Assembly: GCA_020048155.1 (NCBI GenBank) | Contig: JAIFMY010000022.1 | Location: 4,356 to 68,355, forward strand | Reading direction: 5' to 3' | Length of the DNA: 64,000 nt | Source: Bacteroidota bacterium | GTDB lineage: Bacteria; Bacteroidota; Bacteroidia; Bacteroidales; DYOH01 | Shown: positions 25,680-40,057 of the stretch, one piece after another | Numbering within the stretch: position 1 is the stretch's first letter | Layout: the number at the start of each line of letters is the position of its first letter | Program-made: the position numbers and the translations under genes | Notes under the pieces: model-generated | Told to the model about the DNA's origin: nothing | What the model saw: only the letters and a program-made list of their open reading frames with translations | The model's database searches: none

Positions 25680-26708
25680 TTATTGTATCTTTATATCACT
25701 TTCATTTTCAAGGACTTTACTTTTAATATTGGTAAGTTCGCTTCTAAGCAAATCAAGTTCCTTGTTGGTAATATCTATTACAAATTTCAATTTGCGGTGT
25801 CGCCCCAATTGTATAACCAATACGATGATTATAGAAATTATAGAAATAAATATGGTTACAGCCAGATATACTTTAAACTGAGAAATCAACTCATTGCGTT
25901 GCTCCACATTTTGTTTGGTAACGTTGAGTTGTCGTCTGAGTTCGTCTTCAAGTTGGTGTTTAGATGCTTTGAGGATTGAGTCGCTCACCACTTTCAGAGA
26001 ATCGTTGAATATTTGAACAGATTGAAGCTCCGATTGCGAAGTATCTGTTTGTAGCGCATTTTTTGATTTAGAATTTACTTCAGATTTTTGTAATTGATTG
26101 AGTTTGCTTTTATAAAACGCAATATTTTTTTCGTCTTTCTTTACTGTATATATTTCAATCATATCAATGTAGCAGAGTGTTAACAATTGCACATTATCTT
26201 CAAGTGGCAATAGCAGTTCTTCAGCAATTTTGTATTTCATTAGCGCATCTTCTGTACGTAAGATTTTGGAAAGTATGCGCCCGAGGTTAATAAGCCCGGC
26301 AGCCTGACTGTGAAATGCTTTGGCTTTGGACATAGCCTCGCAGGCTTTTTCAAGAGGTTCTATTGCATTTTCATGCTGTCCTAGGTCCACAAAAAGCAGG
26401 CTAAGTTCTTGGTTAACATCGTGCACGAGATAATTATTTTCTGCTTTATTTGCAGAATATGCAGATTTTTTGAGAAACTGAATGGCAAGCCCTCTCAGGT
26501 TTTTTGATTTGTAAATAATGGCTATATCCTTGTAATGATTGGCCGCCTTCTCGTAGGCATTATCTTGCAGACTAATTTCAGCTTTTTGGTTGAGTTGCTC
26601 AATTTGTTGCTTTTCCTCAAGAGTCAAAAAAACTGTTTGAGTATACGCCAGTGTACTATATTTTAAGATTAATATACTAAATATGAGTGCTTTTATTATA
26701 AATTTCAT
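25680..26708 (-). CDS. TPR, coiled-coil and TM protein, a sensor-only paralog of the TPR-PP2C proteins that lacks the phosphatase
   Basis: The 342-aa protein has a signal peptide, TPR-like repeats and one C-terminal TM segment (YLAVTIFISIISIIIVLVIQL). It ends in a ~40-aa cytoplasmic tail with no PP2C motifs. Confidence 0.7.
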   Translation of the reverse strand: MKFIIKALIFSILILKYSTLAYTQTVFLTLEEKQQIEQLNQKAEISLQDNAYEKAANHYKDIAIIYKSKNLRGLAIQFLKKSAYSANKAENNYLVHDVNQELSLLFVDLGQHENAIEPLEKACEAMSKAKAFHSQAAGLINLGRILSKILRTEDALMKYKIAEELLLPLEDNVQLLTLCYIDMIEIYTVKKDEKNIAFYKSKLNQLQKSEVNSKSKNALQTDTSQSELQSVQIFNDSLKVVSDSILKASKHQLEDELRRQLNVTKQNVEQRNELISQFKVYLAVTIFISIISIIIVLVIQLGRHRKLKFVIDITNKELDLLRSELTNIKSKVLENESDIKIQ

Positions 26709-26752
26709 TACCTATAGGTGCTTGAGTGATGAGTTAAAGATAGGACAGATTT

Positions 26753-28750
26753 TTAAATTTTTACTCCCATAACTAAAATATCGTCAACTTGTTCGAAGTT
26801 GGCTTTCCAGTCTTCAAATTCAAAAACTATGGCTTCTTTCTGTTCCAACAAAGATTTGAAAGAAATCCGTTCAAGCATTTTGTCGAAACGGCTTGATAAA
26901 AACTTTTTATTATCTAAACCTCCAAACTGATCTAGTATTCCATCTGTGGTTAAGTATATCATATCGTTAGGTTTAATCTCTATCGTTTTCTCCTTGAATG
27001 GGTTTAATGTATCAAAAGAAATGCCAATAGGCATTTTATCTGGCTTGTATTTGGTAAGAATTTGATCGCGAACCAAATATACCGGTTGGTTGGCGCCTGC
27101 GTATTTTATGTTCATGGCATGATGATCAATGATGCACAGTGCCATATCCATGCCATCGTGGTTGTTGTAGTAGAAAGATCCCGTTTGTCGCAGAGTTTCT
27201 ATAAGTTTAGCCCTAAGCAGATCAAGTATATGATTTGCATTCTGGCTACTGGTTTTACTCATTATTTCATTCAGAAATGCAATACCAAGCATGCTCATAA
27301 GTGCCCCCGGGACTCCGTGTCCGGTACAATCTGCTACGGCCAAATATGTAAGGTTGTTGCGCTGATTTACCCAATAGAAGTCGCCACTGACTATATCGCG
27401 AGGCTTGAATATAATAAAATAATCGGTAAGAGTTTGTTTTAGAAGATCAGCAGGAGGGAATAGTGCTTGCTGAATGCGTTGGGCATAAATAATGCTATCA
27501 GTAATTTTTTTGTTTTGCTCGGCAATCTGGTTTATTTGTCTGATTGCAATTTCGTGCTGATGTTCAATTTTGTGCTTCTGTTGCCTGAGAGTTTCAAGTA
27601 GTGCTCTTTGGTTCGTAATATCAACGAAACTGATAAGAAAATACTGTTTTCCTCTGATTTCAAAATCGACATGGTTGAGCAGGATTGTCACTTTATTGTC
27701 TTTCTCAAGAATCAACTCGCACTCAATACCGTCATTCTGATTGTATTGACGAAGTTGCGCCAAGGAAGAGTCTATATTTAACCTCAGGTATTGAGTAAAC
27801 TCCTTGCCAATGATATCATCTTCAGAGCAACCCAGCATATTCATTGCCAATCGGTTGGTTTTAACTATTTCATTCGTTTCGGGAATTATGAGAAAAATGC
27901 CAGCCTGTATGGTATCAATAATTACTTTAAGAAAACGTTCATTTTCCCTAACTGCTTCTTCTTCTTTGCGTTTGGCGTCTATATCACGAATCAGACAAAA
28001 AATCTTTTTATCGCTTTCAGATCCTATTTTACTCAATTCTAACTCAGCTAAAAAGAATTTGCCATTTTGCTTTTTTACCACCCATTCTATAGAGGTTTGT
28101 CCCAAGGTAAGAGTTTTTCTCAAGGTTTCGGCCACGCCTTGGCTTATAGACTCGTAAGTGGGTTTTATAAAAAACTGGAGCGGAAAGCCTACCAGTTGGT
28201 TTCGGTTGTTGCACTCAAAAACGCTTTGCGCTTGGGTGTTGCAATCGGTAATAATGGAATCTTCGATGATAATAAACGGGGTGTGTGCATTTTCAAAAAC
28301 CAGCCTGAATTTATTTTCGCTTTGCAGCAAAGCCTGATGTTTTATGGCAAGTTTTTTTTCGATTTCCCGTTTGTTGATGGCCATTTCAATCACAACCCTG
28401 AGGTGCTTTTCATCAAAGGGTTTTATGAGAAAACCTAAAGGATCTGTTTTTTTAGCTTCATTTATGATATGAGCCTCTATGGACCCAGTCATAAAAATGA
28501 CTTTGAGCAAATATTTTTCGCGGATTATATTGGCAGTTTGAATGCCGTTGAGTTTAAATTTGAGGTGAATATCCATGAGTATGAGATCAACGGAATTGCT
28601 TTCGATGAATTCGAGCGCCTCTTCGCCGGACTCAATGATAACCATATTGGAATACCCAATCCCCCTGAGCATTTCTTTGAGCAGGATGCTTATGGGCGGG
28701 GAGTCCTCCACTATCAAAACCCGTTCATTCTGTCTATCCAGAAAATCCAT
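26753..28750 (-). CDS. Response-regulator receiver, 2 PAS and SpoIIE/PP2C phosphatase
   Basis: The REC domain reads VLIVEDSP…LILMDIHL…IKP, followed by two PAS-like modules. PP2C motifs VSGDFYW, DCTGHGVPGA, TDGILDQFGG and QVDDILVMG are present. Confidence 0.9.
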   Translation of the reverse strand: MDFLDRQNERVLIVEDSPPISILLKEMLRGIGYSNMVIIESGEEALEFIESNSVDLILMDIHLKFKLNGIQTANIIREKYLLKVIFMTGSIEAHIINEAKKTDPLGFLIKPFDEKHLRVVIEMAINKREIEKKLAIKHQALLQSENKFRLVFENAHTPFIIIEDSIITDCNTQAQSVFECNNRNQLVGFPLQFFIKPTYESISQGVAETLRKTLTLGQTSIEWVVKKQNGKFFLAELELSKIGSESDKKIFCLIRDIDAKRKEEEAVRENERFLKVIIDTIQAGIFLIIPETNEIVKTNRLAMNMLGCSEDDIIGKEFTQYLRLNIDSSLAQLRQYNQNDGIECELILEKDNKVTILLNHVDFEIRGKQYFLISFVDITNQRALLETLRQQKHKIEHQHEIAIRQINQIAEQNKKITDSIIYAQRIQQALFPPADLLKQTLTDYFIIFKPRDIVSGDFYWVNQRNNLTYLAVADCTGHGVPGALMSMLGIAFLNEIMSKTSSQNANHILDLLRAKLIETLRQTGSFYYNNHDGMDMALCIIDHHAMNIKYAGANQPVYLVRDQILTKYKPDKMPIGISFDTLNPFKEKTIEIKPNDMIYLTTDGILDQFGGLDNKKFLSSRFDKMLERISFKSLLEQKEAIVFEFEDWKANFEQVDDILVMGVKI

Positions 28751-28780
28751 TTGGTCAAACTAAATATGAATACTTTTGGT

Positions 28781-30997
28781 TTATACCTTATTTTTCCCGT
28801 TCAATTTCAACCCAATAAAAAGTATATCATCTACCTGTTCGTATTTTCCTTGCCACTTTTTGAGGGTTCTATCAATTTCATTTTTTTGTTGTGCTACAGA
28901 AATATTTTGTATAGATGTGAGCAATTCTTTAACTTGTTTTCTTGAGAATTTAAGCTTCTCATCGCCACCAAATTGATCTTGAAGACCATCGGTAAACAAA
29001 TATATAACAATTTCGTTATTGTGAGAATAGTTATAGGTTTGTTTGGTAAATTGTCTGTCCTGTTCTCTTTGCAAACCGCCAATAGAAATATTATCCCCTT
29101 TGAATTGATCAAACTCACCATCACGGAAAAAGAAAACAGGGTTTTTGGCTCCGGCAAATTCAAATATCTTGTTATGGTGATCAATCACGCATAAAGCCAT
29201 ATCCATTCCGTCTCTGTTATCGTTGTGCTCCTGATTAAGTGCTTTGCGTATAAGTTTATGCAATGAAAGTAGTATAAGGTCGGCACTGGTGATATCTTCG
29301 TAAGTAATTATTTGTTCGAGAAAAGAGTCGGCGAGCATACTCATAAAAGCGCCGGGCACACCATGTCCGGTGCAGTCTATTGCAGCTACTATGGTCATGT
29401 TTTTTTGTTTCAGATGCCTATACCAATAAAAATCACCACTCACCACTTCTTTGGGTTTCAAGAATATAAATGAGTCGGGTATAACAGTTTTCAAGCCTTC
29501 GGTATCAAGCAAAAGTGCATTTTGTATGCGGCTGGCATAGGTAATGGATGCAGTTATGTGCCTGTTCTGATTCTGGATTTCTTCTTTCTGAATGATTATT
29601 TCTTTGTTAGCAACTCCTAGTTCTTCCTTTTGTTTTAGAATTTCATCTTTCTGTTTGTTTATCTCCTCATTTTGCAAAACAAGCTTGTGGTTTGAACGGT
29701 TGAGTTTGCGGCTGCTGGTATAATAATAATATCCGAAAAATGCTATAAATATCAATCCTCCAAGCAAGCTATATGTTTGTATACGGCTCCTCTTCAGTTC
29801 TTCATTTTTGAGTGCCTGGTCGCGGCGCAAAATTTCAATTTCCTTTTCCTGCCTTTGCAATTCCAGACTTACTTGCATTTCAGTAAGTCTCTCCTTCTCT
29901 CTCTCTTCGGTTATCTCATTCATGGTGGATACCAGTTTCTCAAGATTGGTGTTTGCCTCTTTCAGATTGCCATTTTCTGAATATAAAGTAGATAAAAGGG
30001 CGTAGCTACTCTTATACTCTTCCAGAAACCCGCTGTTAGCTTCTATGGATTTATGAGCGAAATCTATGGCTTTATTGCTATTTCCTTGTTGATATGAAAG
30101 GTGGGCAAACTTATTATAAATGAGCGTAATGTTTTCATTCTGATTTGTTTCTTGACTAATGATAAGTGCCCTGTCGTAATAATCTATTGCTTCAGCATAT
30201 TCTTCATTCTCGAAATGCATATCACCGTAAAGTACATATATTTCGGCAACTCTGTCTTTGTCTGCTTCAATTTTATGGCGTATCAGTGCTTCTTTCAATT
30301 TAAGTTTGGCACCATCAAAATCTTCTTGCTGTATTTTTAGTTTGGCTAAGTGAAACAAAGATTCTGCAATGTCCTTATTTACTTTGCTTTTCATGCGATA
30401 AGCCAAAGCACTCTCAAGTTTTTGTTTAGCGGTTTCTATTTGCTCAAGCTGAAGATATACAAGCCCAGCGCGATCGTCGGCAAGTGCTATTCCCGAAAAA
30501 TTATTTGTTTGTTTGAATAAGTCGGCGGCTTTGCTATAATACTCAATAGCCACTTCTTCCACCTTTTGAATGGCATAGAGGTTCCCGACATGTATATAAC
30601 ATATGCCCATTTCATTTTTATCGCCAAGCTGATCGAACAACTTAAAAGCTTTGAAATAATAATCCATGGCCAAATAGTATACCTTTTGCTCGTTGTAAAT
30701 AGCTGCAATATTCTGGAACATACTGGCTTGCAAATGAGGCAAATTCAAGGATTCGGCCAGAATCAAGGCTTCTGCGGCAATTTCGATAGCTAAATAAGGT
30801 TTATCGGTACGGGCCAACTGAAACATATGCCCGAGTTTTTTAATAGCCACGGTATCTTGCCCATTCTCTTGAATATGCTGCTCATACTCAATACGCAGAG
30901 AGTCGAGATCTGCCTGAGCCGATGCTTGTGAATGAAACAAAAGAATGAATGTTATATAAACAAATACACTCCAGATATGGACTAAAAAATATTTCAT
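28781..30997 (-). CDS. Periplasmic TPR sensor, TM, heptad helix and SpoIIE/PP2C phosphatase
   Basis: The 738-aa protein has a signal peptide (…SQASAQADLD), TPR-like repeats and a TM segment (LLGGLIFIAFFGYYYY). PP2C motifs VSGDFYW, DCTGHGVPGA, TDGLQDQFGG and QVDDILFIG are present. Confidence 0.85.
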   Translation of the reverse strand: MKYFLVHIWSVFVYITFILLFHSQASAQADLDSLRIEYEQHIQENGQDTVAIKKLGHMFQLARTDKPYLAIEIAAEALILAESLNLPHLQASMFQNIAAIYNEQKVYYLAMDYYFKAFKLFDQLGDKNEMGICYIHVGNLYAIQKVEEVAIEYYSKAADLFKQTNNFSGIALADDRAGLVYLQLEQIETAKQKLESALAYRMKSKVNKDIAESLFHLAKLKIQQEDFDGAKLKLKEALIRHKIEADKDRVAEIYVLYGDMHFENEEYAEAIDYYDRALIISQETNQNENITLIYNKFAHLSYQQGNSNKAIDFAHKSIEANSGFLEEYKSSYALLSTLYSENGNLKEANTNLEKLVSTMNEITEEREKERLTEMQVSLELQRQEKEIEILRRDQALKNEELKRSRIQTYSLLGGLIFIAFFGYYYYTSSRKLNRSNHKLVLQNEEINKQKDEILKQKEELGVANKEIIIQKEEIQNQNRHITASITYASRIQNALLLDTEGLKTVIPDSFIFLKPKEVVSGDFYWYRHLKQKNMTIVAAIDCTGHGVPGAFMSMLADSFLEQIITYEDITSADLILLSLHKLIRKALNQEHNDNRDGMDMALCVIDHHNKIFEFAGAKNPVFFFRDGEFDQFKGDNISIGGLQREQDRQFTKQTYNYSHNNEIVIYLFTDGLQDQFGGDEKLKFSRKQVKELLTSIQNISVAQQKNEIDRTLKKWQGKYEQVDDILFIGLKLNGKNKV

Positions 30998-31167
30998 CTG
31001 GTATTAATTCTCAAAATATAAACTTAATTTCCGATGCAGTATGTTAATGGTAAAAGTAACTAAATTGTTTTTAAATAGAAAGTATGTTTCACGATAATAC
31101 AAAAAACCATTCAGTATTTTATAAGTGAGGGAAATATAGAAAAGTAAATAGAAATTTAAAACAGATT

Positions 31168-34100
31168 TCAGATTGAAATACCTACAACCAAAATATCATC
31201 AATCTGCGATGTTCCGTGCATCCACTTATCCATTTCATTCTCAAAAATAGTATATTGCTGTTGCATAGGCAAGCAAGCGGTTTGGTTGAGTAAAAGTTCA
31301 AGTCGTTTGGTAAGAAATTTTTTGCCCAAAGGTCCCCCAAACTGGTCGCGATATCCATCGGTAAAAAGATATAATTTATTACCAGGAATGTAAGGAAACG
31401 TATTGACTGTAAAAGCAGCCGGAAGCTCTTGCGAATAAAACCCAATAGGCATTTTATCTGGCTTTAGCTTAAACAGTTCATTGGTTTTGCAGGTATACAA
31501 ATAAGCAGCATTGTTAGCCCCTGCAAATTGTACGATTCCCTCAGATTTGTTTATGGTTATCATAGCAATATCAAGCCCATCTCGTGTTTCCCCGTCTTTT
31601 CCGCGCTGATGAAGAGCAAGAATGAACCTCTCGCGCAATTGGTTGAGTAATTCTGCCGGATTCAAATCTTCGAGTCGTTGTATCAGGTCATTGAGATAGG
31701 CCATACCCAGGAGGCTGAGAAAAGCTCCGGGAATGCCATGACCTGTGCAATCTGCAACGGCTATAAATGCAACTCCATTTTTGTTGGCAGCCCAATAAAA
31801 ATCACCGCTCACAATATCTCTTGGTCTATTGAGTATGAAATAATCGTCGAAAAGTGCTTCGAAGAGCAGATCGAGCGGCAACATGGCTTGCTGTATACGA
31901 CTTGCATACAATATGCTATCGCGCATTTCCTTGTTTTGCTTAAAAATCTGATCTCTTTGGGCTTCAATTTCAGCATTTTTGCGCATTATCTCTTGCTCAG
32001 CAGATTTTACATTGCTAATATCGGTATCTACGGCAATCCATCTGAAAATGGTTCCATCGTCGTTGAAAATGGGAGTAATATTGGTCTGATACCAAAAACT
32101 TTCGCCTTCAACTACATCGTGGGTTACGTAATTGGCAGATTTAAGGTTGAAATCAAAATTATTGATGATTTCTTCTAAATCTGGACGAACTAAATGCTTG
32201 ATTTTATTAAAATTAGAACCTTTAAAATTTCGAAATTTAAACTTAAATAACCGCATAAAACCTTCGTTCCACCATTCAAAATCCCCTTTCTCGTTCAGAA
32301 TTACAAAAGAAGAATCTGCTTGTTTGGTAATAAGTGAAAACTGACGCAATTCATTTACCGATAATTTGAGCATTTCTGCCTGGGATCTTAGTTTGTTGGC
32401 TTGCAATTCTATTTCTTCCTTTTGTTTCGTTATTTCGGCGGTGCGATCCTGAATTATTTTCTCCAACTCAATTTTCTTTAACATGTATCGTCTTTGATAC
32501 ATTTTCTGCCCCAAATAAAAAACAACAATGATAACCAACACATAGAAACCGTATGCAGCAAAAGTCCTGTAAAAAGGAGGGCTCACGCCAAAATGAAACT
32601 CCGTATCTCCGGTAACCTGCCCGTCTATATTTCTGGCTCTTACTTTGAAAATATATTTCCCCTCAGGCAAAGCATTGTACACTACTACATTCTGAGAGTT
32701 CACCATATTCCACCCAATATCCAGTCCTTCAAGTTTATACTCGAAATAGGGTTTATTCCCGGGCACGTAAGTTGGTAATCCGAATTCAAATTTTATTTTA
32801 CTCCTTTTGTAAGCCAATTCATCATTAAGTATCAACTTATTTGGGCTTATGGTCGAAATTTTGCTCAAGTCAAATTCCATATTCTCTTGGTTCTTTTGGT
32901 TCCAAAAGGTTATTTTACTGAAAACTACACTCGGAAGTTGAATTTTTGTCTGCTTATTGAGAATTCTGTTGATGAGCAAAAAATTATCGTAATCACCTAT
33001 ACAATACTCATTTTCATTAATTTCGGCAAAAACAATATTGTCAGAATTCGGGTTATATCCAGCAGAGTATTCGGGAGTGATATTAAAAATCTTATTCTTG
33101 TCGTAACAACCAGTATAATAACCACTCACTGTAATAATCCAGATTTTGTCATATTTTCCACTTTTCAATGATTTTATATGCAAACGTTTGCCGTTTATTA
33201 TACGATTAAACTCCTGCGCCAACTCAAAGCCACCAGCTTTGTCACCACTCGAGTGGACATATTTATAAACATTTTCATTGGCCAAAACAAAAAGATTATT
33301 GTGGAACCAAACCGGGGAATACAATTCGTTGGGGGGTAATCCATCCTTTTGGGTAAATCTTGTAATACGTGGGGATTTAAAATCTGAATTTGCATCAAAT
33401 TGCAAACGGTAGACTCCACTGTTGTCTACTCCCAACCAAATATTCCCGTCGTTATCCTCAGCTATTTGACGAATTTCACCTTCTATATCAGCAAATTTCC
33501 CTAGGCTGTCTAGTTTCACTGCATTTTGATCACTTCGTATTTTATACAAATAAATGCCTGAAGGATTGCCAACAAAAAGAATTTTGTGATTAATGCTATA
33601 CTGATGCGCAAAAAGAGGACTATATATGCTGGCAAGTTGCACAATACGGCTCTCTTCTGCCAAACAAATGCCTCGCAGATATAACCCAAGTAATATTTTG
33701 CGATTTTCGGTCAATTTTACTTCAACAAAACCTTGGTTATATATATTTTTACTATCTACTTGGCTGAGTTCGCCAGAATTCATCCCCAGGTTGGTGTCGC
33801 TTATATCCAATTTATATGTAGCTCCATGAGTACCTAAGTACAAAACATGATTGAAAAAGTATGCATTGCTAAGTAAGTGTTGCAACCCATCATTGCGCGT
33901 ATAGCTATTTATCGGAATATTTAGAAACACTTTATAAATTTCATCTTCCGTTGCAAGCCAGAGTGTCTGATTAGCATCCACAAACATTTCATATATTGCG
34001 TCCACTGTAAGGCCGTTATTTCTATTCAACTCATAGAGTTTATCGCCGTTTTTAGATACTACTACCATTCCGCCATTGAGCGAGCTATACGCAAAATTTC

Positions 34101-34902
34101 CATCGGGCAATAGTTCACCCGAATACACCATTTTGGTATTAAAAAACTCACTGGCTGTTGTTTTGAATGCTTGCGTTTTATATGGTGGCTTTTTAGAAGC
34201 CAGAAATAAACCATGCTGCGAGGTGGCAATTATAAGATTATCTGCGTTGTAGTTCAAAATACTAGATATCCGGTATTTAGCCAAATCTGCACCTATTGGA
34301 GTCAATTTTACAGTATCATTTTCAATGATTGCAATACCAGAGTTTTCAGTAGCAATGAAAATACTATCACCACATTTAAATCCGCTAAAAATGCTAAAAT
34401 CCTTATCGTGCTTCAGAAGTGTCAGATTATTCTCTGCATACTTAAATACCTTCTTGGTGCCCACAATAAAATAGATTGCCCCCCCATATTCAATGATTTT
34501 CCAGACATCACCATTCTTGTCTTTTATCCGTTCAGAAATATTAGTATATCTCAGACCAGCCGGAGAGATGGTAAAATATCCGAACTCGCCGGTTCCACCT
34601 ACATACAACTTATCATCAATCAATAGCATAGATCTGACCAATGACTTGTTGCTAAGTTTAAAGAGAGTCCAATTATTGCCATCGAACCTCAGCAAACCTG
34701 AACCGTTTCCGAAGTACATAACTCCGGAAGAATCTTGAGCAATATCCCAATTCTGAGCACTTGCCCGATGTTGGGCATGCGAGTAGTTTTGTATGATAGG
34801 CTTCAATGATTGTATAAAAGGCGCACGGGATTGTGCCCAGATTTGGGATTCGGAGATGAAAATGAGAAATAAAACCAATATTTTTAGCAGTTTGGCCGGC
34901 AT
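31168..34902 (-). CDS. Periplasmic two-component-regulator beta-propeller with a Y_Y_Y-like domain, then TM, PAS and SpoIIE/PP2C phosphatase
   Basis: The 1244-aa protein has a signal peptide (…QIWAQSRAP) and ~750 aa of propeller-like repeats of the kind found in Bacteroides hybrid two-component sensors. An Ig-like segment (KPYFEYKLEGLDIGWN…GKYIFKVRARN) and a TM segment follow, then PAS. PP2C motifs VSGDFYW, DCTGHGIPGA, TDGYRDQFGG and QIDDILVVG are present. Confidence 0.8.
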   Translation of the reverse strand: MPAKLLKILVLFLIFISESQIWAQSRAPFIQSLKPIIQNYSHAQHRASAQNWDIAQDSSGVMYFGNGSGLLRFDGNNWTLFKLSNKSLVRSMLLIDDKLYVGGTGEFGYFTISPAGLRYTNISERIKDKNGDVWKIIEYGGAIYFIVGTKKVFKYAENNLTLLKHDKDFSIFSGFKCGDSIFIATENSGIAIIENDTVKLTPIGADLAKYRISSILNYNADNLIIATSQHGLFLASKKPPYKTQAFKTTASEFFNTKMVYSGELLPDGNFAYSSLNGGMVVVSKNGDKLYELNRNNGLTVDAIYEMFVDANQTLWLATEDEIYKVFLNIPINSYTRNDGLQHLLSNAYFFNHVLYLGTHGATYKLDISDTNLGMNSGELSQVDSKNIYNQGFVEVKLTENRKILLGLYLRGICLAEESRIVQLASIYSPLFAHQYSINHKILFVGNPSGIYLYKIRSDQNAVKLDSLGKFADIEGEIRQIAEDNDGNIWLGVDNSGVYRLQFDANSDFKSPRITRFTQKDGLPPNELYSPVWFHNNLFVLANENVYKYVHSSGDKAGGFELAQEFNRIINGKRLHIKSLKSGKYDKIWIITVSGYYTGCYDKNKIFNITPEYSAGYNPNSDNIVFAEINENEYCIGDYDNFLLINRILNKQTKIQLPSVVFSKITFWNQKNQENMEFDLSKISTISPNKLILNDELAYKRSKIKFEFGLPTYVPGNKPYFEYKLEGLDIGWNMVNSQNVVVYNALPEGKYIFKVRARNIDGQVTGDTEFHFGVSPPFYRTFAAYGFYVLVIIVVFYLGQKMYQRRYMLKKIELEKIIQDRTAEITKQKEEIELQANKLRSQAEMLKLSVNELRQFSLITKQADSSFVILNEKGDFEWWNEGFMRLFKFKFRNFKGSNFNKIKHLVRPDLEEIINNFDFNLKSANYVTHDVVEGESFWYQTNITPIFNDDGTIFRWIAVDTDISNVKSAEQEIMRKNAEIEAQRDQIFKQNKEMRDSILYASRIQQAMLPLDLLFEALFDDYFILNRPRDIVSGDFYWAANKNGVAFIAVADCTGHGIPGAFLSLLGMAYLNDLIQRLEDLNPAELLNQLRERFILALHQRGKDGETRDGLDIAMITINKSEGIVQFAGANNAAYLYTCKTNELFKLKPDKMPIGFYSQELPAAFTVNTFPYIPGNKLYLFTDGYRDQFGGPLGKKFLTKRLELLLNQTACLPMQQQYTIFENEMDKWMHGTSQIDDILVVGISI

Positions 34903-34938
34903 CCGATTGTAAAGTGTATCATATTTTACACCAAATAT

Positions 34939-36255
34939 TTATAATTTAATACCTATCACAAGAATATCGTCAAGTTGACCATACTCCAGCATCCAGTCAC
35001 TGATAGTATTATCAAGTATATTCACTTGTAGGGTAAAATCGTGTGGATGCAATTTCACCAAAAGTTCCTTAAATTGTTTAGCCAGAAATTTTCTTCCCGA
35101 TGGGCCTCCAAATTGGTCAATATAGCCATCTGTAGTGAGATACATGAAATCACCAGGTTTATAAAAATGTTCTGTTTCGGTAAACGAATTATGAATTCTG
35201 AACGTAATACCAATCGGCATTTTATCACCACGGTACTCAGTAAGTTCACCCTCCGAAATAAAATAAACACTGTGATAAGCCCCGCTGAATGTTACTTTAC
35301 GCTCAGTAGTATTTACAATACATAGACTTATATCTAAACCATCTTTTGTCTCAATATCCTTTCCGGTCTGATTCAAAGATTTGATGACCATATTCCGAAG
35401 TTCAAACAGGATTTCGGAAGGTTTCCATTCATTAATTTTCAAGAAAATCTCATTGAGCAACGAAATGCCCAAAACGCTCATAAGTGCCCCGGGTACTCCG
35501 TGTCCGGTGCAATCTGCGGCTGCAATTGCAATCAAATCATCTTTCTGATTGATCCAATAAAAATCACCACTTACTATATCACGTGGTTTATAAAGGATAA
35601 AGGAATCGGGGAAAAGGTTTTTGAAATTTTGCTCTGGCACCAACATCGCTTGTTGTATGCGTCTGGCGTAAAATATACTGTCCGTTATTTCTCTCTTTTG
35701 CTCAAGTATCTGGTCGCGTTGTTGTTCGGCCATATCACGTTGTGCTTCTATTTCATCTCTTTGCGATTCAATTTCTTCTTTTTGGCGCACTATTTCGGCG
35801 TTGCGTGAGGCAAGTTCCTCTTCGAGCCTATCTTTATCTTTTACGCGTTGCACCATAGCCTTCATTACACTTTGCATGAGTTCCTGGTGCGTTGACATAA
35901 GGTTGAAAAAACTACTTTGGCTAAGTGCTATAAGCGTAACCGGTGTAATGGTTGTTACCGAGGCGGTGCGCAATGAAGAGTCGATGATGGAATACTCGCC
36001 AAAAGTACTTGGGGCATCAAGCTGTGTAAAAGTGACGTATTCATCATGCACCCTCACGCTGCCTTCTTTCAGAATGAACATAGAGTCAGATACATCATTC
36101 TTAGCAAAAATAATTTTGTATGCATCCAAGCGAATGGTCACTAATTCACGGGCTATTTTGATCAGAATATCATCAGCAATAGATGCAAACAGGGAAGTTT
36201 GCTTCAGCGCAAGCATCTCGGCTTCATGTTCCATATGGGTGTATGCATCTGCCAT
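34939..36255 (-). CDS. Cyclic-nucleotide-binding domain, heptad helix and SpoIIE/PP2C phosphatase
   Basis: The cNMP-binding signature reads FILKEGSVRV…FGEYSIIDSSLRTASVTTITP. PP2C motifs VSGDFYW, DCTGHGVPGA, TDGYIDQFGG and QLDDILVIG are present. Confidence 0.85.
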   Translation of the reverse strand: MADAYTHMEHEAEMLALKQTSLFASIADDILIKIARELVTIRLDAYKIIFAKNDVSDSMFILKEGSVRVHDEYVTFTQLDAPSTFGEYSIIDSSLRTASVTTITPVTLIALSQSSFFNLMSTHQELMQSVMKAMVQRVKDKDRLEEELASRNAEIVRQKEEIESQRDEIEAQRDMAEQQRDQILEQKREITDSIFYARRIQQAMLVPEQNFKNLFPDSFILYKPRDIVSGDFYWINQKDDLIAIAAADCTGHGVPGALMSVLGISLLNEIFLKINEWKPSEILFELRNMVIKSLNQTGKDIETKDGLDISLCIVNTTERKVTFSGAYHSVYFISEGELTEYRGDKMPIGITFRIHNSFTETEHFYKPGDFMYLTTDGYIDQFGGPSGRKFLAKQFKELLVKLHPHDFTLQVNILDNTISDWMLEYGQLDDILVIGIKL

Positions 36256-36467
36256 TTGCTGATATTTAATTTAAGTATATTATGCTTCTGATAAAACTCT
36301 AAAGTAACAAAAACATTGTATGCAATAAAATCTGTTTAGTATTTTTTTGGCACAAATATTACTCGGCGTATTCACTTTATAAAAATACACTTGATTGCAA
36401 CGAGCTATTATACTAAATATGTAACACATACGCAAGTAAATACCCATTAGTTTTTCCCTAAAACACA

Positions 36468-36504
36468 ATACCCATATTATCACAGAATAGGATAATACGG
36501 GTAT
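36468..36504 (-). terminator. Hairpin downstream of the GH24 gene (putative terminator)
   Basis: The stem is atacccatattatc / gataatacgggtat (13 of 14 bp) with a 9-nt loop. On the minus strand it is followed by TGTGTTTTAGGG. Confidence 0.4.
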
Positions 36505-36531
36505 GAAACTATGCAAAAAAAATTAAGCGAT

Positions 36532-37221
36532 TTACCTTTTTATATAGGTACGCTTGCCTTCATTGTACAAATTGAGCTCCCACATCCTGATTTTGTAGGC
36601 ATGCTTGCTTTTTATTTTCTTGCCATTGCGGGTATAATATGCCCATGCAAGTATTTCATCGTCGATATTTTCGTTACCAGAAATTTTATTCTTCAAATCA
36701 CTTCTATAAAAATTTCCAGTACCTACCGAAAATACGAAGTGTGCAATGGCCAGTTTCTGAAGCCCCTCAAGTGTAGTGTTTCTTTCAACAGCCTTCAGTG
36801 CTTTGGCAAAATCTTTACGTAAAAGGCTGTCTGCTGTTTTGCGGCTAATGGGCTCCTGAAAGCTTTCACCTTCTAATATTACATGCCCGTATCCAATGGT
36901 AGGCTGGCCGGCAGCACAAGTATAAATCAATCCCCCATTATACCCTTCGTGCTTTTTAATATATTCTATGGTTTCAATATAATATCGATTCCAAAGATAG
37001 TCTTCAGTTGCATAGTTTCGTTTGATTGACAAGGCATCGTTATCATCGTTTTTACTTGCCGGCACAACACTCCATCCAAGTATTACGATTATAGTAAGCC
37101 CAATAGCAATGAACGATCTTTTCATAAGTCGGTTTTTAAAATTACGTTGCAAAGGTACGCTACCCTTTCGGTGGTAAGGTCGTTTTTTACAAGGTTCATT
37201 CTTTTTTAACACACTTTTCAT
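36532..37221 (-). CDS. Membrane-anchored or secreted GH24 (T4-lysozyme family) muramidase
   Basis: The segment IKKHEGYNGGLIYTCAAGQPTIGYGH gives an E-x9-C-x5-T arrangement, close to the family E-x8-[D/C]-x5-T triad. There is an N-terminal TM or signal segment (MKRSFIAIGLTIIVILGWSVVPA). The start may be the internal Met at 37125. Confidence 0.7.
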   Translation of the reverse strand: MKSVLKKNEPCKKRPYHRKGSVPLQRNFKNRLMKRSFIAIGLTIIVILGWSVVPASKNDDNDALSIKRNYATEDYLWNRYYIETIEYIKKHEGYNGGLIYTCAAGQPTIGYGHVILEGESFQEPISRKTADSLLRKDFAKALKAVERNTTLEGLQKLAIAHFVFSVGTGNFYRSDLKNKISGNENIDDEILAWAYYTRNGKKIKSKHAYKIRMWELNLYNEGKRTYIKR

Positions 37222-37524
37222 GCTATATATTTATTATACTGACACTTACATCAAATTGGCCATATTAGCACTTCATTTACAAATATCGGCACTTGCTATT
37301 TAACCATCATTAATATCTGATTAAGTGTGCTTTACCATTTTCACACCTACACTTTATTAAGTATACATTTTCAAAATATCCCTATAATAAGCATCTTTTT
37401 ATGGTTAACAAAATGTTAAGGATGAATAGAAATTTTAAAACTTTCGTGTAATTTAATGAAAAAAAGGATAATATTTAGTAACTTTGGTAACGATTGAAAA
37501 ATTTAACACCTAAATTAAAAGATT

Positions 37525-37857
37525 ATGGCCAATGTTTACAAAGGTAGAAATGGCAGTACCGGAATTGGCAGAGTAGGCGCTGATGGTATTATCTACAACA
37601 AAATAAACACTTGTAGTCCGGTAGGCCGCATAGATACTCCCGAAAATTACATTTACGATAGCCAAGGAAATTTCATGGGACGAATAGACCGCGATGGCAA
37701 AGTATACAAATCCAGAACTGGCATTAAGCGCTGTGTGGGACGTATTGATTATAACGGTTTTTTGTACAATACTCCCGAAGGACATGAGTGCATAGCCCAT
37801 GTGCAGCGTGGCGAGGAAATGTATGGTGCTGCATATTTCCTTTTACATGAAATGTAA
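37525..37857 (+). CDS. Small hypothetical protein built from five ~19-aa repeats
   Basis: The 110-aa protein has a recurring (V/I/L)Y-x(3-7)-G-x(2-3)-(I/V)GR(I/V)D-x-x-G unit. The GR dipeptide falls at residues 15, 34, 52 and 72, and Y at 5, 24, 44, 61, 81 and 100. A TAnnTTTG box (taactttg, 37479..37486) lies 38 nt upstream. Confidence 0.55.
   Translation: MANVYKGRNGSTGIGRVGADGIIYNKINTCSPVGRIDTPENYIYDSQGNFMGRIDRDGKVYKSRTGIKRCVGRIDYNGFLYNTPEGHECIAHVQRGEEMYGAAYFLLHEM
37534..37821 (+). repeat. Five tandem ~19-codon repeats within the 110-aa ORF
   Basis: The units are VYKGRNGSTGIGRVGADGI, IYNKINTCSPVGRIDTPENY, IYDSQGNFMGRIDRDGK, VYKSRTGIKRCVGRIDYNGF and LYNTPEGHECIAHVQRGEEM. Confidence 0.75.
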
Positions 37858-37862
37858 GCTTT

Positions 37863-38642
37863 TTGAATCTTTTATTTTCATATAACTCAATTGCCATGCA
37901 TTTACATGGAAAGTACAATTTTTTTATCAAAAATCTGGCTGTTTTTTTGGCCATTTGTGCATTATTTATTTCCCACGTTTTCGCACAAGGAACCTACAAA
38001 ACCTTAGCTGCTATGGAAGCGGAGCTAAAAGCTCTTCAAAATGATAAGCAAAACGTAAAGCTAGTAGAATCAGGTGCCGGAGCTTGGGTAATATTGTACG
38101 GGGAAAATGGTTATTCACAAAACAATTTGCCTTTGCATATATCCAAAAAACTCGATGAAATATATACTTCGAACAAAAATATAAAGCAGATTTGGTGGAA
38201 CGAGGCAGGTGCAAATCTTATATTGTATGGCAACAATTCTTTTTCGGCATACAATATTCCAAAAGCTATGCTTAATAAACTTAAAGAACTCAATGACAAA
38301 AGAAAAGTCATAAATTTTGCATGGATAAATTCAGATAATGCATGGCTCATATTGTATGAAGATTCTGATTTTGCATGCAGCAACATTCCAAACGCCATGA
38401 TGCTCGAACTAAAAAAACTATCAGATGCAAAAGCAAAATGGATTCAGGCAGTATTTACAAATGAAACAAATTGGTTTGTACTCTACGACAAGCACAAGTT
38501 TGTAAATTCGCAAATGCCAATCAGTTTGGTATCCAATATAGAATCGTTGGCTACAACAGACGCAAGTATAGAATACATATATACTCTAGGGAAAAACTGG
38601 ATTTTGATTTACAATTCTAATCAATATGTAACCAGTTTTTAA
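37863..38642 (+). CDS. Secreted hypothetical protein with exact 43-aa periodicity (4.5 repeats)
   Basis: The signal peptide ends …ISHVFA|QG. The unit W-x-(I/V)-L-Y…(N/Q)-(L/I/M)-P…(helix)… recurs with Tyr at 79, 122, 165, 208 and 250 and Pro at 90, 133, 176 and 219. The gene starts 5 nt after the 110-aa gene (alternative start at 37896). Confidence 0.6.
   Translation: MNLLFSYNSIAMHLHGKYNFFIKNLAVFLAICALFISHVFAQGTYKTLAAMEAELKALQNDKQNVKLVESGAGAWVILYGENGYSQNNLPLHISKKLDEIYTSNKNIKQIWWNEAGANLILYGNNSFSAYNIPKAMLNKLKELNDKRKVINFAWINSDNAWLILYEDSDFACSNIPNAMMLELKKLSDAKAKWIQAVFTNETNWFVLYDKHKFVNSQMPISLVSNIESLATTDASIEYIYTLGKNWILIYNSNQYVTSF
38085..38639 (+). repeat. Tandem 129-nt (43-codon) coding repeats, four full units plus a terminal half unit
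   Basis: The units are WVILYGENGYSQNNLPLHISKKLDEI…, LILYGNNSFSAYNIPKAMLNKLKEL…, WLILYEDSDFACSNIPNAMMLELKKL…, WFVLYDKHKFVNSQMPISLVSNIESL… and WILIYNSNQYVTSF. Confidence 0.8.
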
Positions 38643-39291
38643 TTTGATTATTAAGCAAGGTATTTTTTTCAGTTTGCTTGTAATATGTTTCGTTATTTTT
38701 AAATACAATTTCCAAAACCCTAAGCACTACTAAGGATGAAAGAATATCTATGGCCTCGCTACGCCGAATCAGACACAATTTTATAAAGCGCGATAGTGTT
38801 ATAAATTCATTTTCATGCAAATACTTAAATAAAGCATGCTCGGTTTCGGAGAATGACATCTTTATACCATCTACCCTTTTGTGCTTCTTCCATACGTTTA
38901 TCATCACCAAATTGGCCAATTGGTTTTCGTCGGCAACCCTAATGTATGCCCACCATTTACCTTCACGTTCGGCCATGTGAGGTTTATTCGTACTTTCAGG
39001 TACAACTATTTCAAGTACAGTTTTACCATCAATATACCAAGGTTTTGTAGTAAAAAGCACTTCTGGTTTGCAATACAATTGAGCAGCCGCCTGCACCATA
39101 TAATATTCTTCGTCGGACGAAACACCAACAATATTGCCATTATCTTTGACACCAATAAGAAGTTTACCTCCTTGTGTATTGGCAAATGCAACCAGACTGC
39201 GGGCAATTTTACGGGAATCAGTTATAGCGTATTTAAAATCGAGATTCAGACCTTCACCCGAAAAAATCAGATCTTTTATATATTTGGACAT
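38617..39291 (-). CDS. AlbA_2 (Schlafen-like divergent AAA) domain protein with a C-terminal winged-helix-like tail
   Basis: The segment EGLNLDFKYAITDSRKIARSLVAFANTQGGKLLIGVKDNGNIVGV is the characteristic AlbA_2 N-terminal pattern. The protein is 224 aa, and its 3' end overlaps the convergent 259-aa gene by 26 nt. Confidence 0.65.
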   Translation of the reverse strand: MSKYIKDLIFSGEGLNLDFKYAITDSRKIARSLVAFANTQGGKLLIGVKDNGNIVGVSSDEEYYMVQAAAQLYCKPEVLFTTKPWYIDGKTVLEIVVPESTNKPHMAEREGKWWAYIRVADENQLANLVMINVWKKHKRVDGIKMSFSETEHALFKYLHENEFITLSRFIKLCLIRRSEAIDILSSLVVLRVLEIVFKNNETYYKQTEKNTLLNNQIKNWLHID

Positions 39292-39313
39292 ACTTCAAGA
39301 AGCCGAAAGTAAT

Positions 39314-40057
39314 CTAAGAATCGCTTTTAAGTGCGGCCATACATGCTGCTCCAATAATACCAGCATTATTTTCAAGTGCGGCTGCGGTCACCGGTGTGTA
39401 TACCGTGAAATTATGGATAAATTTGTCAAGTTTTTTGCTTGCACCACCCCCTAAAATAAACAATTCGGGTGAAAAAAGAAATTCCAGATACTTCAAATAC
39501 TCATTGAATCTTCTTCCCCATTCGTCCCATGTGAGATCTAGTTTTTTTCGTGTTGCGTCAGAGGCATATTGCTCAGCAACTACTCCTTTAAACTGTAGAT
39601 GTCCAAATTCTGTATTCGGAACCAGAATACCATCAGTGAATATAGCTGTACCAAGCCCGGTACCTATAGTAATGACTATAACTACCCCTTTGGTTTTGGC
39701 AACATGTCCATATAAGAATTCGGCATATCCGGCAGCATCAGCATCATTCAGTACATATACTTTGTTTCCGGTTTTTGCTTCAAAAATTGCAGATGCATTT
39801 GTGCCTATCCAGCTTTTATCGATATTGGAGGCAGTATATACTATCCCATTACGAACCACGGCCGGAAAACCTACTCCAACCAAACCTTTCCACTGAAAAT
39901 TATTGCTAATTGCAGATATTGCATCGGCGACAAGCGCGGGTGTAGATGGCTTTGGTGTATCTACCCTATATCTTTCAGTTATAAATGCACCTGTTTCTGT
40001 ATTTATAATGGCCCCCTTAATTCCTGATCCGCCAACATCTATACCTAAAACATTCAT
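39314..40057 (-). CDS. ppgK: ROK-family polyphosphate/ATP glucokinase
   Basis: The protein begins MNVLGIDVGGSGIKGAIIN (ATP-binding DxGGT/S-type) and has the ROK core (VLNDADAAGYAE, TIGTGLGTAIF, EFGH). The ORF-track start at 40141 adds a non-homologous 28-aa leader, so I chose the internal ATG at 40057. Confidence 0.8.
   Translation of the reverse strand: MNVLGIDVGGSGIKGAIINTETGAFITERYRVDTPKPSTPALVADAISAISNNFQWKGLVGVGFPAVVRNGIVYTASNIDKSWIGTNASAIFEAKTGNKVYVLNDADAAGYAEFLYGHVAKTKGVVIVITIGTGLGTAIFTDGILVPNTEFGHLQFKGVVAEQYASDATRKKLDLTWDEWGRRFNEYLKYLEFLFSPELFILGGGASKKLDKFIHNFTVYTPVTAAALENNAGIIGAACMAALKSDS

What the first reader, a model, noticed from the sequence alone, without database searches (positions are those of the whole stretch)
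36532..38642. Divergent cassette of a membrane-anchored GH24 muramidase facing a two-gene operon of repeat proteins (possible enzyme/inhibitor or toxin/immunity module)
A stand-alone T4-lysozyme-family enzyme carries an N-terminal TM or signal segment and an E-x9-C-x5-T arrangement, close to the family E-x8-[D/C]-x5-T triad. It is transcribed divergently, across a 303-nt AT-rich spacer, from a 110-aa cytoplasmic repeat protein and, 5 nt later, a secreted 259-aa repeat protein. No phage structural, holin or integrase genes accompany the muramidase, so it is not an obvious prophage lysis cassette. A periplasm-directed repeat protein next to a periplasm-directed muramidase fits the logic of lysozyme-inhibitor or effector-immunity pairs. 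I cannot show any homology to known inhibitors. The cassette sits between the signalling island and housekeeping genes, flanked by an AlbA_2-domain gene, which is consistent with accessory DNA.
Basis: inference. Interest (0 to 1): 0.55.

Follow-up and report, generated by a model that had tools for sequence, protein, structure and literature searches.

The report
Exported GH24 muramidase beside beta-flower gene
A chromosomal, phage-derived cell-wall-cutting enzyme that this Bacteroidales lineage has kept for its own use sits head-to-head with a small "beta-flower" protein gene and a secreted repeat protein, but nothing shows that either neighbour is its inhibitor.

Summary
The three ORFs are real. 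The minus-strand gene is a true GH24 (T4-lysozyme family) muramidase with an invariant Glu/Cys/Thr triad. Its real start is most likely Met33 (197 aa), which gives an ordinary cleavable Sec signal peptide rather than a membrane anchor.

The 110-aa protein is a cytoplasmic 5-fold beta-flower protein (near Pfam PF21785, function unknown). The "259-aa" protein is probably 248 aa and is secreted. It has five repeats of three strands plus a helix. It belongs to a large extracytoplasmic repeat family with no Pfam model, found fused to kinases, caspases and beta-lactamase-fold domains.

About 35 orthologous Bacteroidota lysozyme loci have neither neighbour. In one lysozyme sub-clade the lysozyme/beta-flower head-to-head pair is kept wherever the DNA upstream of the beta-flower gene is visible, even where both flanks differ. 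The 248-aa gene evolves two to three times faster than the lysozyme and is absent from one lineage that keeps an intact lysozyme.

So the inhibitor or immunity reading, which rests on the 248-aa protein, is not supported. The "accessory DNA" reading is not supported either. The finding is an ordinary domesticated muramidase with a modest lead: a conserved link to a beta-flower protein. Interest is low to moderate.

The parts
36532..37125 (-). Exported GH24 (T4-lysozyme family) muramidase. The likely true CDS starts at Met33 of the ORF and gives 197 aa. It has a signal peptide (MKRSFIAIGLTIIVILGWSVVPA|SK), catalytic Glu92, Cys102 and Thr108 (229-aa numbering), and a single Cys.
   Evidence: Pfam PF00959 at 58.4 bits. 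The triad is invariant in alignment A1. It aligns to the E/D/T of solved endolysins. The start is inferred.
37126..37221 (-). The in-frame 32-codon 'N-terminal extension' of the 229-aa ORF. It is probably the 5' leader and promoter, not coding sequence. It contains the -7 box TACCTTTG at 37150-37157.
   Evidence: Codon changes against L001 are 2 synonymous and 13 non-synonymous here, versus 73 and 45 in the rest of the gene. The motif was found. GCAAA[GA][GA]TA (its reverse complement) is conserved in five lineages.
37222..37524 (.). AT-rich divergent intergenic spacer. It holds a Bacteroidetes-type -7 box, TAACTTTG, at 37479-37486 (+), 39 nt before the beta-flower ATG. Apart from the two -7 boxes it is not conserved between lineages.
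   Evidence: No Rfam family matched.
37525..37857 (+). A 110-aa cytoplasmic 5-fold beta-flower protein. It has four clear GR(I/V)..G..Y hairpin units, a fifth degenerate unit and a C-terminal hydrophobic helix. It is the most conserved of the three genes (58-82% identity across the clade).
   Evidence: Pfam Bflower_2 PF21785 at 26.5 bits, below the 38-bit cut-off. PHROG phrog_18536 at 2.5e-10. The AF2 model has 10 strands plus a helix at 98-109, pLDDT 78.8. The fold is described in PMC10584680.
37896..38642 (+). A 248-aa secreted repeat protein (the ORF opens at TTG 37863). It has a signal peptide (…FISHVFA|QG), a helix, then five ~43-aa repeats of three strands plus a helix. The fold is propeller-like. 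It evolves fast (23-47% identity across the clade).
   Evidence: AF2 pLDDT 94.2. Only weak Foldseek propeller hits, TM about 0.4. 359 distant cluster representatives. No Pfam or NCBIfam model matches.
38617..39291 (-). Flanking AlbA_2 (Schlafen-type) gene. It is convergent with the repeat gene and overlaps its 3' end by 26 nt. It is part of the conserved neighbourhood in some lineages but is not shown to belong to the module.
   Evidence: Pfam PF04326 at 80 bits. It is syntenic in L001, L002 and L004. In L174 it lies directly 3' of the lysozyme. It is absent from L172 and L084.

Best explanation
The minus-strand gene is a domesticated phage-type GH24 muramidase that these bacteria inherit vertically and use themselves.

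**How the enzyme most likely works**
- It is made from its own Bacteroidetes-type promoter as a ~197-aa precursor.
- It is exported by Sec and its signal peptide is probably cleaved.
- In the periplasm it cuts the MurNAc-GlcNAc backbone of peptidoglycan with a Glu/Cys/Thr triad. The likely role is wall remodelling or turnover (inferred).
- It does not need a dedicated inhibitor. The same enzyme, with the same triad, occurs alone in most lineages that have it.

**The neighbours**
- The plus-strand operon encodes a strongly constrained cytoplasmic 5-fold beta-flower protein of unknown function.
- It also encodes a fast-evolving, dispensable periplasmic protein. This is a solo copy of a widespread extracytoplasmic binding/sensor repeat domain.
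- In one Bacteroidales clade the lysozyme and beta-flower genes have stayed head-to-head through several rearrangements. This points to shared regulation or a loose envelope-related functional link. It does not point to an enzyme/inhibitor or toxin/immunity pair.

**Shown:** family membership, intact triad, export signals, the repeat folds, and the pattern of co-occurrence.
**Inferred:** enzymatic activity, signal cleavage, the housekeeping role, and any coupling to the beta-flower protein.
For: **GH24 membership and an activity-compatible triad**
- Searches give the family hit and the aligned triad.
- D20C substitutions keep activity in T4 and P22 lysozymes. The attenuated SpmX domain has D20L/R instead (10.1101/418723).

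**Chromosomal and vertically inherited**
- 68 word-index homologues were found, on contigs up to 6.4 Mb.
- 395 relatives were found in GTDB species genomes. The top ~40 form a ~200-aa exported Bacteroidota family.
- Phage relatives are at most 45% identical, and only over parts of the catalytic domain.
- Neighbours differ from lineage to lineage and are housekeeping or signalling genes.

**Start codon, promoter and signal peptide**
-.

**Beta-flower and repeat gene near the lysozyme in only one clade**
- tblastn and an HMM search of six-frame ORFs of all loci agree.
- In an NJ tree the lysozymes with a beta-flower neighbour form one clade.

**The pair is kept while the flanks change**
- SpoIIE | AlbA_2-ROK flanks.
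- LigA | AlbA_2-ROK flanks.
- DUF1573 | DUF6913-DHDPS-PriA flanks, with no repeat gene.

**The repeat protein is generic and extracytoplasmic**
-.
Against: - No activity, localisation or expression data exist.
- The lysozyme/beta-flower adjacency survives rearrangement on both sides. That is more than plain synteny predicts, so the two may be more tightly coupled than 'neighbours'.
- The clade holds only about four or five distinct lineages, all from metagenomic contigs.
- The NJ tree has no support values.
- Genome-wide presence or absence of the partner genes could not be checked, because only loci were available.
- A lineage-specific, non-essential modulatory role for the 248-aa protein is not excluded.
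Confidence: 0.55

Rival explanations
1. Beta-flower coupling. The cytoplasmic beta-flower protein and the exported muramidase form a functional pair. The beta-flower protein might be a regulator, a pre-export chaperone or holdase, or a lipid- or precursor-binding factor of the Tubby clan that tunes wall hydrolysis. The 248-aa protein would be an optional accessory.
For: - The head-to-head pair is present in every locus where the DNA upstream of the beta-flower gene is visible. These are the window, L001, L002, L004, L086-88, L172/173, L255 and L256-L259, L262, L263.
- This holds across three different flank combinations.
- The beta-flower protein is under the strongest constraint of the three genes, at 58-82% identity.
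Against: - The association arose once (one clade) and covers few lineages.
- About 35 other orthologous lysozymes lack it.
- The protein has no export signal, so it is in a different compartment from the mature enzyme.
- Each gene has its own -7 box and the rest of the spacer is not conserved.
- No relative of the beta-flower protein was found in phage records or IMG/VR contigs, so phage lysis cassettes gave no support.
Confidence: 0.22
2. The secreted 248-aa repeat protein is a periplasmic inhibitor or immunity protein for the exported muramidase. Known analogues are T4 Spackle, which inhibits the gp5 lysozyme, and Pim, which protects against pesticin. The module would be self-protection, or a toxin/immunity pair used against competitors.
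For: - Both proteins carry Sec signals.
- The genes are adjacent in four lineages.
- The 248-aa protein evolves fast, as many immunity proteins do.
- Periplasmic protein inhibitors of GH24 domains do exist: Spackle (PMC7677548 and PMC7650644).
Against: - The 248-aa gene is missing in L172, L173 and L254. The lysozyme in L172/L173 (P0007) keeps the E/C/T triad.
- About 35 other lineages carry the intact exported lysozyme with no such neighbour.
- The domain is generic and is fused to many unrelated effector and signalling domains. A solo homologue sits in an unrelated context.
- No Pfam, NCBIfam, PADLOC or PDB match links it to any inhibitor family.
- No secretion-system or toxin-delivery domains were seen among the neighbouring genes scanned.
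- The lysozyme is a core, vertically inherited gene, not a mobile toxin.
Confidence: 0.1
3. Chance neighbours. All three genes are functionally unrelated, and the adjacency is residual synteny inside one family of Bacteroidales.
For: - ROK and AlbA_2 are conserved alongside them in L001, L002 and L004.
- There are few independent lineages.
- No regulatory element is shared in the spacer beyond two separate promoters.
Against: The lysozyme/beta-flower junction is the only adjacency in this neighbourhood that survives in all three flank contexts.
Confidence: 0.1
4. Decayed prophage lysis cassette. The lysozyme would be an endolysin, and the neighbours would be remnants of lysis or lysis-control genes.
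For: - The GH24 domain is of phage origin (phrog_7).
- The beta-flower protein matches a PHROG of unknown function at 2.5e-10.
Against: - There are no phage genes in the neighbourhood.
- Orthologues are conserved across Bacteroidota in core contexts.
- The leader is a classical hydrophobic signal peptide, not a SAR domain.
- Phage homologues are at most 45% identical over parts of the catalytic domain.
- No phage or IMG/VR relatives of the beta-flower protein were found.
Confidence: 0.03

Closest known systems
Bacterial 'autolysin/endolysin'-class GH24 lysozymes (P22 gp19, R21 and P1 Lyz type; Pfam PF00959)
   Same: - Same fold family.
- Same Glu-x8/9-Cys/Asp-x5-Thr triad, with Cys as in P1 Lyz.
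- Same C-terminal conserved segment as endolysin 7m5i.
   Different: - Chromosomal and vertically inherited, with no holin or spanin genes nearby.
- A classical hydrophobic Sec signal instead of a Gly/Ala-rich SAR anchor.
- Only one Cys in the window protein, so no P1-type disulfide caging.
SpmX muramidase domain of Caulobacterales (domesticated GH24; PDB 6H9D)
   Same: - It is a phage GH24 lysin co-opted as a core cellular gene.
- It is the best-scoring solved structure for the family profile (10.1101/418723).
   Different: - SpmX is a multidomain polar localisation factor whose triad is degraded (D20L/R, T26 free) and whose activity is attenuated.
- Here the protein is a single exported domain with the triad fully kept.
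- The NCBIfam SpmX model scores 27 bits against a 700-bit cut-off.
Beta-flower fold proteins (Pfam PF21784-PF21786, clan CL0395 with Tubby C-terminal domain; Durairaj et al. 2023)
   Same: - Ten short strands in five hairpins enclosing a C-terminal hydrophobic helix.
- The semi-conserved [DNEQ]xxG hairpin tips are seen as DSQG, DRDG and DYNG.
- No PDB neighbour.
   Different: - It scores below the Pfam gathering threshold (26.5 against 38 bits).
- No function is known for any member.
- The lysozyme linkage was not mentioned in the passages of the defining paper that I read.
Periplasmic protein inhibitors of lysozymes (T4 Spackle against the gp5 GH24 domain; also Ivy, MliC/PliC, PliI, PliG and Pim, recalled from my own knowledge)
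   Same: A small periplasmic protein encoded by the organism that has to cope with a muramidase in its periplasm (Spackle: PMC7677548).
   Different: - No sequence or profile similarity to any of them.
- The 248-aa protein is a five-repeat toroid-like fold from a generic sensor-domain family.
- It is dispensable in a sister lineage.
Beta-propeller sensor/scaffold domains of bacterial signalling and conflict proteins (WD40-like, bpX, Reg_prop)
   Same: - Repeated blades of about 43 aa.
- Fusion to kinases, caspases, EAD11, TIR and TPR domains.
- Weak Foldseek hits to Ycf48 and to the periplasmic propellers of Bacteroides hybrid two-component sensors.
   Different: - Each blade is predicted as three strands plus a helix.
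- TM-scores are only about 0.3-0.44.
- No existing Pfam model matches.

Membership tests
GH24 / T4-lysozyme family (Pfam PF00959) | Profile match above the curated threshold | tested here: met
   58.4 bits against a 22.3-bit cut-off. The family profile hits many solved GH24 structures.
GH24 / T4-lysozyme family (Pfam PF00959) | Catalytic Glu, then Asp/Cys about 8 residues later, then Thr 5 residues after that | tested here: met
   E92, C102 and T108 are invariant in 20 sequences. Some members have exactly x8. The residues align to the E/D/T of 7m5i. The motif definition is in PMC3556154.
GH24 / T4-lysozyme family (Pfam PF00959) | Muramidase activity on peptidoglycan | not testable with these tools
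   Needs an enzyme assay. D20C is reported to be compatible with activity (10.1101/418723).
SAR (signal-arrest-release) endolysin | Weakly hydrophobic Gly/Ala/Ser-rich N-terminal TM segment that can leave the membrane (criterion from my own knowledge) | tested here: not met
   The h-region IAIGLTIIVILGWSV has mean Kyte-Doolittle hydropathy 2.47 and is rich in Ile/Leu/Val. It is followed by a VPA|S cleavage-type site.
SAR (signal-arrest-release) endolysin | Phage lysis-cassette context (holin/pinholin, spanins) | tested here: not met
   Neighbours are SpoIIE phosphatases, the beta-flower gene, AlbA_2, ROK and AmtB.
SAR (signal-arrest-release) endolysin | Regulatory Cys in the leader that pairs with the catalytic Cys (P1 Lyz type) | tested here: not met
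   The 197-aa protein has a single Cys, C102 (sequence).
Beta-flower, 5-fold (Pfam PF21785 Bflower_2) | Profile match above the gathering threshold | tested here: inconclusive
   26.5 bits against 38 bits, E = 6e-06. The collection's precomputed Pfam hits list PF21785 for six of its seven word-index homologues.
Beta-flower, 5-fold (Pfam PF21785 Bflower_2) | Ten short antiparallel strands in five hairpins, often enclosing a C-terminal hydrophobic helix; [DNEQ]xxG at hairpin tips | tested here: met
   The AF2 model has 10 strands plus a helix at 98-109, pLDDT 78.8 and pTM 0.72. Motifs DSQG, DRDG and DYNG are present. The description is in PMC10584680.
Known proteinaceous lysozyme inhibitors / immunity proteins (Ivy, MliC/PliC, PliI, PliG, Spackle, Pim) | Sequence or profile similarity to one of these families | tested here: not met
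   Neither neighbour gives a hit in Pfam, NCBIfam, PADLOC or the PDB sequences.
Known proteinaceous lysozyme inhibitors / immunity proteins (Ivy, MliC/PliC, PliI, PliG, Spackle, Pim) | Obligate co-occurrence of the inhibitor with the enzyme it controls | tested here: not met
   The repeat gene is absent in L172, L173 and L254, and from about 35 other lysozyme loci.
Known proteinaceous lysozyme inhibitors / immunity proteins (Ivy, MliC/PliC, PliI, PliG, Spackle, Pim) | Physical binding to and inhibition of the muramidase | not testable with these tools
It needs AlphaFold-Multimer, pull-down and an activity assay.
Beta-propeller repeat domains | Closed toroid of 4-stranded antiparallel blades | tested here: inconclusive
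   The model has five units of three strands plus a helix. The best Foldseek matches are propellers, but only at TM about 0.4 and rmsd 6-8 Å. I could not inspect the coordinates.

The most novel reading that the evidence does not exclude
The conserved head-to-head pairing could mean that the cytoplasmic 5-fold beta-flower protein works with the exported GH24 muramidase. It might control the enzyme's synthesis or export, or sense a membrane or wall precursor. That would give the first functional context for the beta-flower fold, which was described in 2023 with no known function. The 248-aa protein would then be a lineage-specific periplasmic accessory from a new extracytoplasmic repeat-domain family.
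Probability: 0.15. Interest if true: 0.6.

Novelty: new member of a known kind. Interest (0 to 1): 0.3.

Why it matters
If the ordinary reading is right, this adds one more case of a phage lysin kept as a host gene. Unlike SpmX, it keeps a fully intact catalytic triad and an ordinary export signal. It also corrects a likely start-codon error.

Two by-products have some value:
1. There is a reproducible genomic link between an exported muramidase and a beta-flower protein. This is a testable lead for a fold family with no known function.
2. There is a large, confidently modelled extracytoplasmic repeat domain that matches no Pfam model. It is attached to kinases, caspases and beta-lactamase-fold enzymes and deserves a family definition.

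None of this is very surprising to a specialist.

Tried and rejected
- **Word-index search with the 248-aa protein found nothing.** Proteins 99-100% identical are in the collection, so this was a tool miss. The exhaustive search replaced it.
- **The metagenome scan with the beta-flower alignment confirmed no locus.** The second scan, with the lysozyme sub-clade alignment, returned almost only distant lysozymes. It gave one useful contig, L174.
- **L174 and L085 could not be joined.** They come from the same assembly, but their ends show no overlap.
- **No phage link for the beta-flower protein.** Phage records (tblastn), IMG/VR and BFVD all gave nothing significant.
- **No solved neighbour for the beta-flower model** by Foldseek against the PDB. 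This agrees with the paper that defined the fold.
- **Nothing notable in the spacer.** Rfam and the generic sigma-70 promoter and terminator scans of 36200-39400 gave nothing above chance.
- **PADLOC gave no defence-system hit**.
- **Prophage remnant considered and rejected:** there are no phage genes, and the context is core.
- **SAR endolysin considered and rejected:** the leader is too hydrophobic and there is no second Cys.
- **T6SS effector considered and rejected:** the protein has a Sec signal, and no secretion-system domains were seen among the neighbouring genes scanned.
Full report
**1. What is in the sequence**

ORF listing confirms three ORFs at 36532-37221(-), 37525-37857(+) and 37863-38642(+).

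- **First ORF.** It matches Pfam Phage_lysozyme (PF00959, 58.4 bits against a cut-off of 22.3) and the PHROG endolysin family phrog_7.
  - In an alignment of 20 family members, E92, C102 and T108 are invariant.
  - A profile of that alignment aligns them to the Glu/Asp/Thr of solved GH24 endolysins.
[quoted passage not shown] Asp-to-Cys at this position is one of the few substitutions reported to keep activity (10.1101/418723).
- **Second ORF.** It has no leader and scores below threshold on Pfam Bflower_2 (PF21785, 26.5 against 38 bits).
  - An AlphaFold2 model gives ten short strands plus a C-terminal helix (pLDDT 78.8).
  - That is the 5-fold beta-flower architecture described in 2023 (PMC10584680). 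It has no PDB neighbour.
- **Third ORF.** It has no Pfam, NCBIfam or PDB sequence match.
  - Its model is very confident (pLDDT 94.2). It shows a leader and helix, then five ~43-aa units of three strands plus a helix.
  - Foldseek finds only weak propeller matches, at TM about 0.4.

**2. Corrections to the observation**

*The 229-aa reading is probably too long.*
- Against the 77%-identical orthologue in L001, the first 32 codons show 2 synonymous and 13 non-synonymous differences. The remaining 197 codons show 73 and 45.
- More distant orthologues start at the equivalent of Met33, with stop codons upstream.
- A Bacteroidetes-type -7 box (TAnnTTTG; TACCTTTG at 37150-37157, minus strand) sits about 25 nt upstream of Met33. 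It is conserved in all five lineages compared.
- The 8-mer is common (108 matches in the window, 85 expected). The conservation across lineages is what gives it weight.
- The protein then begins MKRSFIAIGLTIIVILGWSVVPA|SK. This is a strongly hydrophobic h-region (mean hydropathy 2.47) followed by a signal-peptidase-type site. An exported, probably soluble enzyme is more likely than a membrane-anchored one.

*The third gene is shorter than read.*
- Gene callers start it at ATG 37896 (248 aa), 38 nt after the beta-flower stop.

- On one side are five tandem SpoIIE-phosphatase sensor genes.
- On the other are AlbA_2, ROK, AmtB, DUF3467, rpoC and rpoB.
- There are no phage genes and no compositional anomaly.

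**3. The lysozyme family**

- The word-index search found 68 homologues of about 190-215 aa. All carry PF00959, and some lie on contigs up to 6.4 Mb.
- A scan of GTDB species genomes found 395 relatives. The top ~40 (35-53% identity) are from Bacteroidales, Draconibacterium and 'Chlorobi'-labelled MAGs. Alphaproteobacterial, gammaproteobacterial and other lysozymes follow.
- Members have N-terminal signal peptides. Some have what look like lipoboxes (…ALSC, …LISC; my reading of the alignment).
- Phage relatives in IMG/VR reach at most 45% identity, and only over parts of the catalytic domain.
- I clustered all neighbouring ORFs in 40 loci. No partner recurs across the family. Neighbours change from lineage to lineage. 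By Pfam they include L-aspartate oxidase-type flavoproteins (FAD_binding_2), Mur ligase and GreA. By my reading of the sequences they also include a PhoD-like metallophosphatase, a saccharopine-dehydrogenase-like protein and histidine kinases.
- This is the pattern of a domesticated, vertically inherited gene. The known precedent for a co-opted GH24 is SpmX. SpmX has a degraded triad, whereas this family keeps its triad.

**4. Co-occurrence test**

- tblastn of the window proteins and HMM searches of all six-frame ORFs find beta-flower and repeat-protein genes next to the lysozyme only in a small set of loci.

| Context | Loci | Gene order |
|---|---|---|
| A | window species (L002, L256-L263), sister L001 | SpoIIE< lys< >Bfl >rep <AlbA_2 <ROK |
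| B | L004 (Acetofilamentum sp.), L086-88, L255 | LigA> <lys >Bfl >rep; AlbA_2 and ROK follow in L004 |
| C | L172/L173 | DUF1573, lys, Bfl, then directly DUF6913-DHDPS-PriA, no rep |
| C (partial) | L254 | Bfl then DUF6913, no rep; upstream cut by contig end |
| D | L084/L085 | Bfl-rep-DUF6913-DHDPS-PriA; upstream cut by contig end |

- In L004 the gene after the lysozyme is a 667-aa ORF. I take it to be LigA by analogy with L086 and did not scan it.
- In an NJ tree the lysozymes with a beta-flower neighbour form one clade. Its sister, L170, lacks the neighbour.
- Three conclusions follow:
  - The lysozyme/beta-flower junction is the only adjacency kept in all contexts.
  - The beta-flower/repeat operon is frequent but not obligatory.
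  - The association arose once.
- Pairwise identities across the clade are 58-82% for the beta-flower protein, 45-77% for the lysozyme and 23-47% for the repeat protein.

**5. What the 248-aa protein is**

- The exhaustive search found 359 cluster representatives at E ≤ 1e-3, mostly 22-33% identical.
- Among 87 multidomain homologues, the partner domains are caspase (11), beta-lactamase fold (7), EAD11 (6), Ser/Thr kinase (4), reprolysin, TPR, FGE-sulfatase, transglutaminase and TIR.
- In the kinases a TM segment separates the kinase from the repeat domain. 55 of 63 solo homologues have an N-terminal hydrophobic leader.
- A 28%-identical solo homologue sits among unrelated genes, with no lysozyme or beta-flower gene nearby.
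- It is therefore a generic extracytoplasmic binding/sensor module. It is not a dedicated lysozyme partner.

**6. Interpretation**

- *Best reading (about 0.55).* The lysozyme is an exported, catalytically competent, housekeeping-type muramidase that needs no dedicated inhibitor. It stands next to a lineage-specific operon of unknown function.
- *First rival (about 0.22).* The conserved divergent pairing with the beta-flower gene may reflect real coupling. The beta-flower protein is cytoplasmic, each gene has its own promoter box, and the rest of the spacer is not conserved. I therefore rate it second.
  - For it: both proteins are exported, they are adjacent in four lineages, the repeat protein diverges fast, and periplasmic GH24 inhibitors such as T4 Spackle exist (PMC7677548).
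  - Against it: the candidate inhibitor was lost in a lineage whose lysozyme stays intact. The same lysozyme lives alone in about 35 other lineages. No similarity to any inhibitor family was found.
- *'Accessory DNA'.* This reading is not supported.
- *Prophage remnant.* This is effectively excluded.

**7. Limits**

- All relatives are metagenomic contigs or MAGs, so the number of independent lineages is small.
- I could not check genome-wide presence or absence of the partner genes.
- Enzyme activity, signal cleavage and localisation are inferred.

**8. Verdict**

The lysozyme is an ordinary new member of a known kind. The proposed mechanism is not supported. What remains of interest is a modest lead that links a beta-flower protein to a muramidase, and an uncurated repeat-domain family.

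Noticed in passing
window 37896-38642; homologues P0069-P0218: The 248-aa protein defines a large repeat family with no Pfam or NCBIfam model. It has ~43-aa repeats with consensus AFxPxGGWxILxxxNGxxxxxIPxxLxxxLxxLxxxxxxIK. There are 359 cluster representatives. It is extracytoplasmic and is fused to Ser/Thr kinases, caspases, beta-lactamase-fold, EAD11, reprolysin and TIR domains. The AF2 model has pLDDT 94 and no close PDB fold.
   Followed up: partly
window 36532-37221 (-): The 229-aa ORF, also called as such by automatic annotation in L001 and L256, is probably 32 codons too long. The extension carries a conserved Bacteroidetes -7 promoter box and evolves like non-coding DNA.
   Followed up: yes
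window 22803-36255; L013, L020, L026, L029, L031, L035, L036, L039: SpoIIE/PP2C-phosphatase sensor genes lie beside the exported GH24 gene in three separate lysozyme sub-clades. The window itself has five such genes in tandem (22.8-36.3 kb). This may be chance, given how many paralogues these genomes carry.
   Followed up: partly
L025/L029, L027/L036, L028/L031, L034/L039, L030/L032: Several rumen and gut Bacteroidales MAGs carry two paralogous copies of the exported GH24 gene on different contigs.
   Followed up: no
window 38617-39291 (-); L174 666-1301: The AlbA_2 (Schlafen-type) gene overlaps the 3' end of the repeat gene by 26 nt. In another lineage (L174) its homologue lies directly 3' of the lysozyme, so it also tends to stay in this neighbourhood. 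It is absent from L172 and L084.
   Followed up: partly
window 37525-37857: The beta-flower protein matches PHROG phrog_18536 (unknown function) at 2.5e-10. However, tblastn against 50,697 phage records, the IMG/VR scan and BFVD Foldseek found no relative.
   Followed up: yes
window 36256-36531: The 276-nt gap between the lysozyme stop and the downstream cNMP-binding SpoIIE phosphatase gene (same strand) has no -7 box match and no terminator-like site. The two genes might be co-transcribed.
   Followed up: no
tool behaviour: The word-index protein search returned nothing for the 248-aa protein, although 99-100% identical proteins are in the collection. The first metagenome scan with the beta-flower alignment confirmed none of 599 pattern matches. 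'No homologue' results from these tools should not be taken at face value for repeat proteins.
   Followed up: yes
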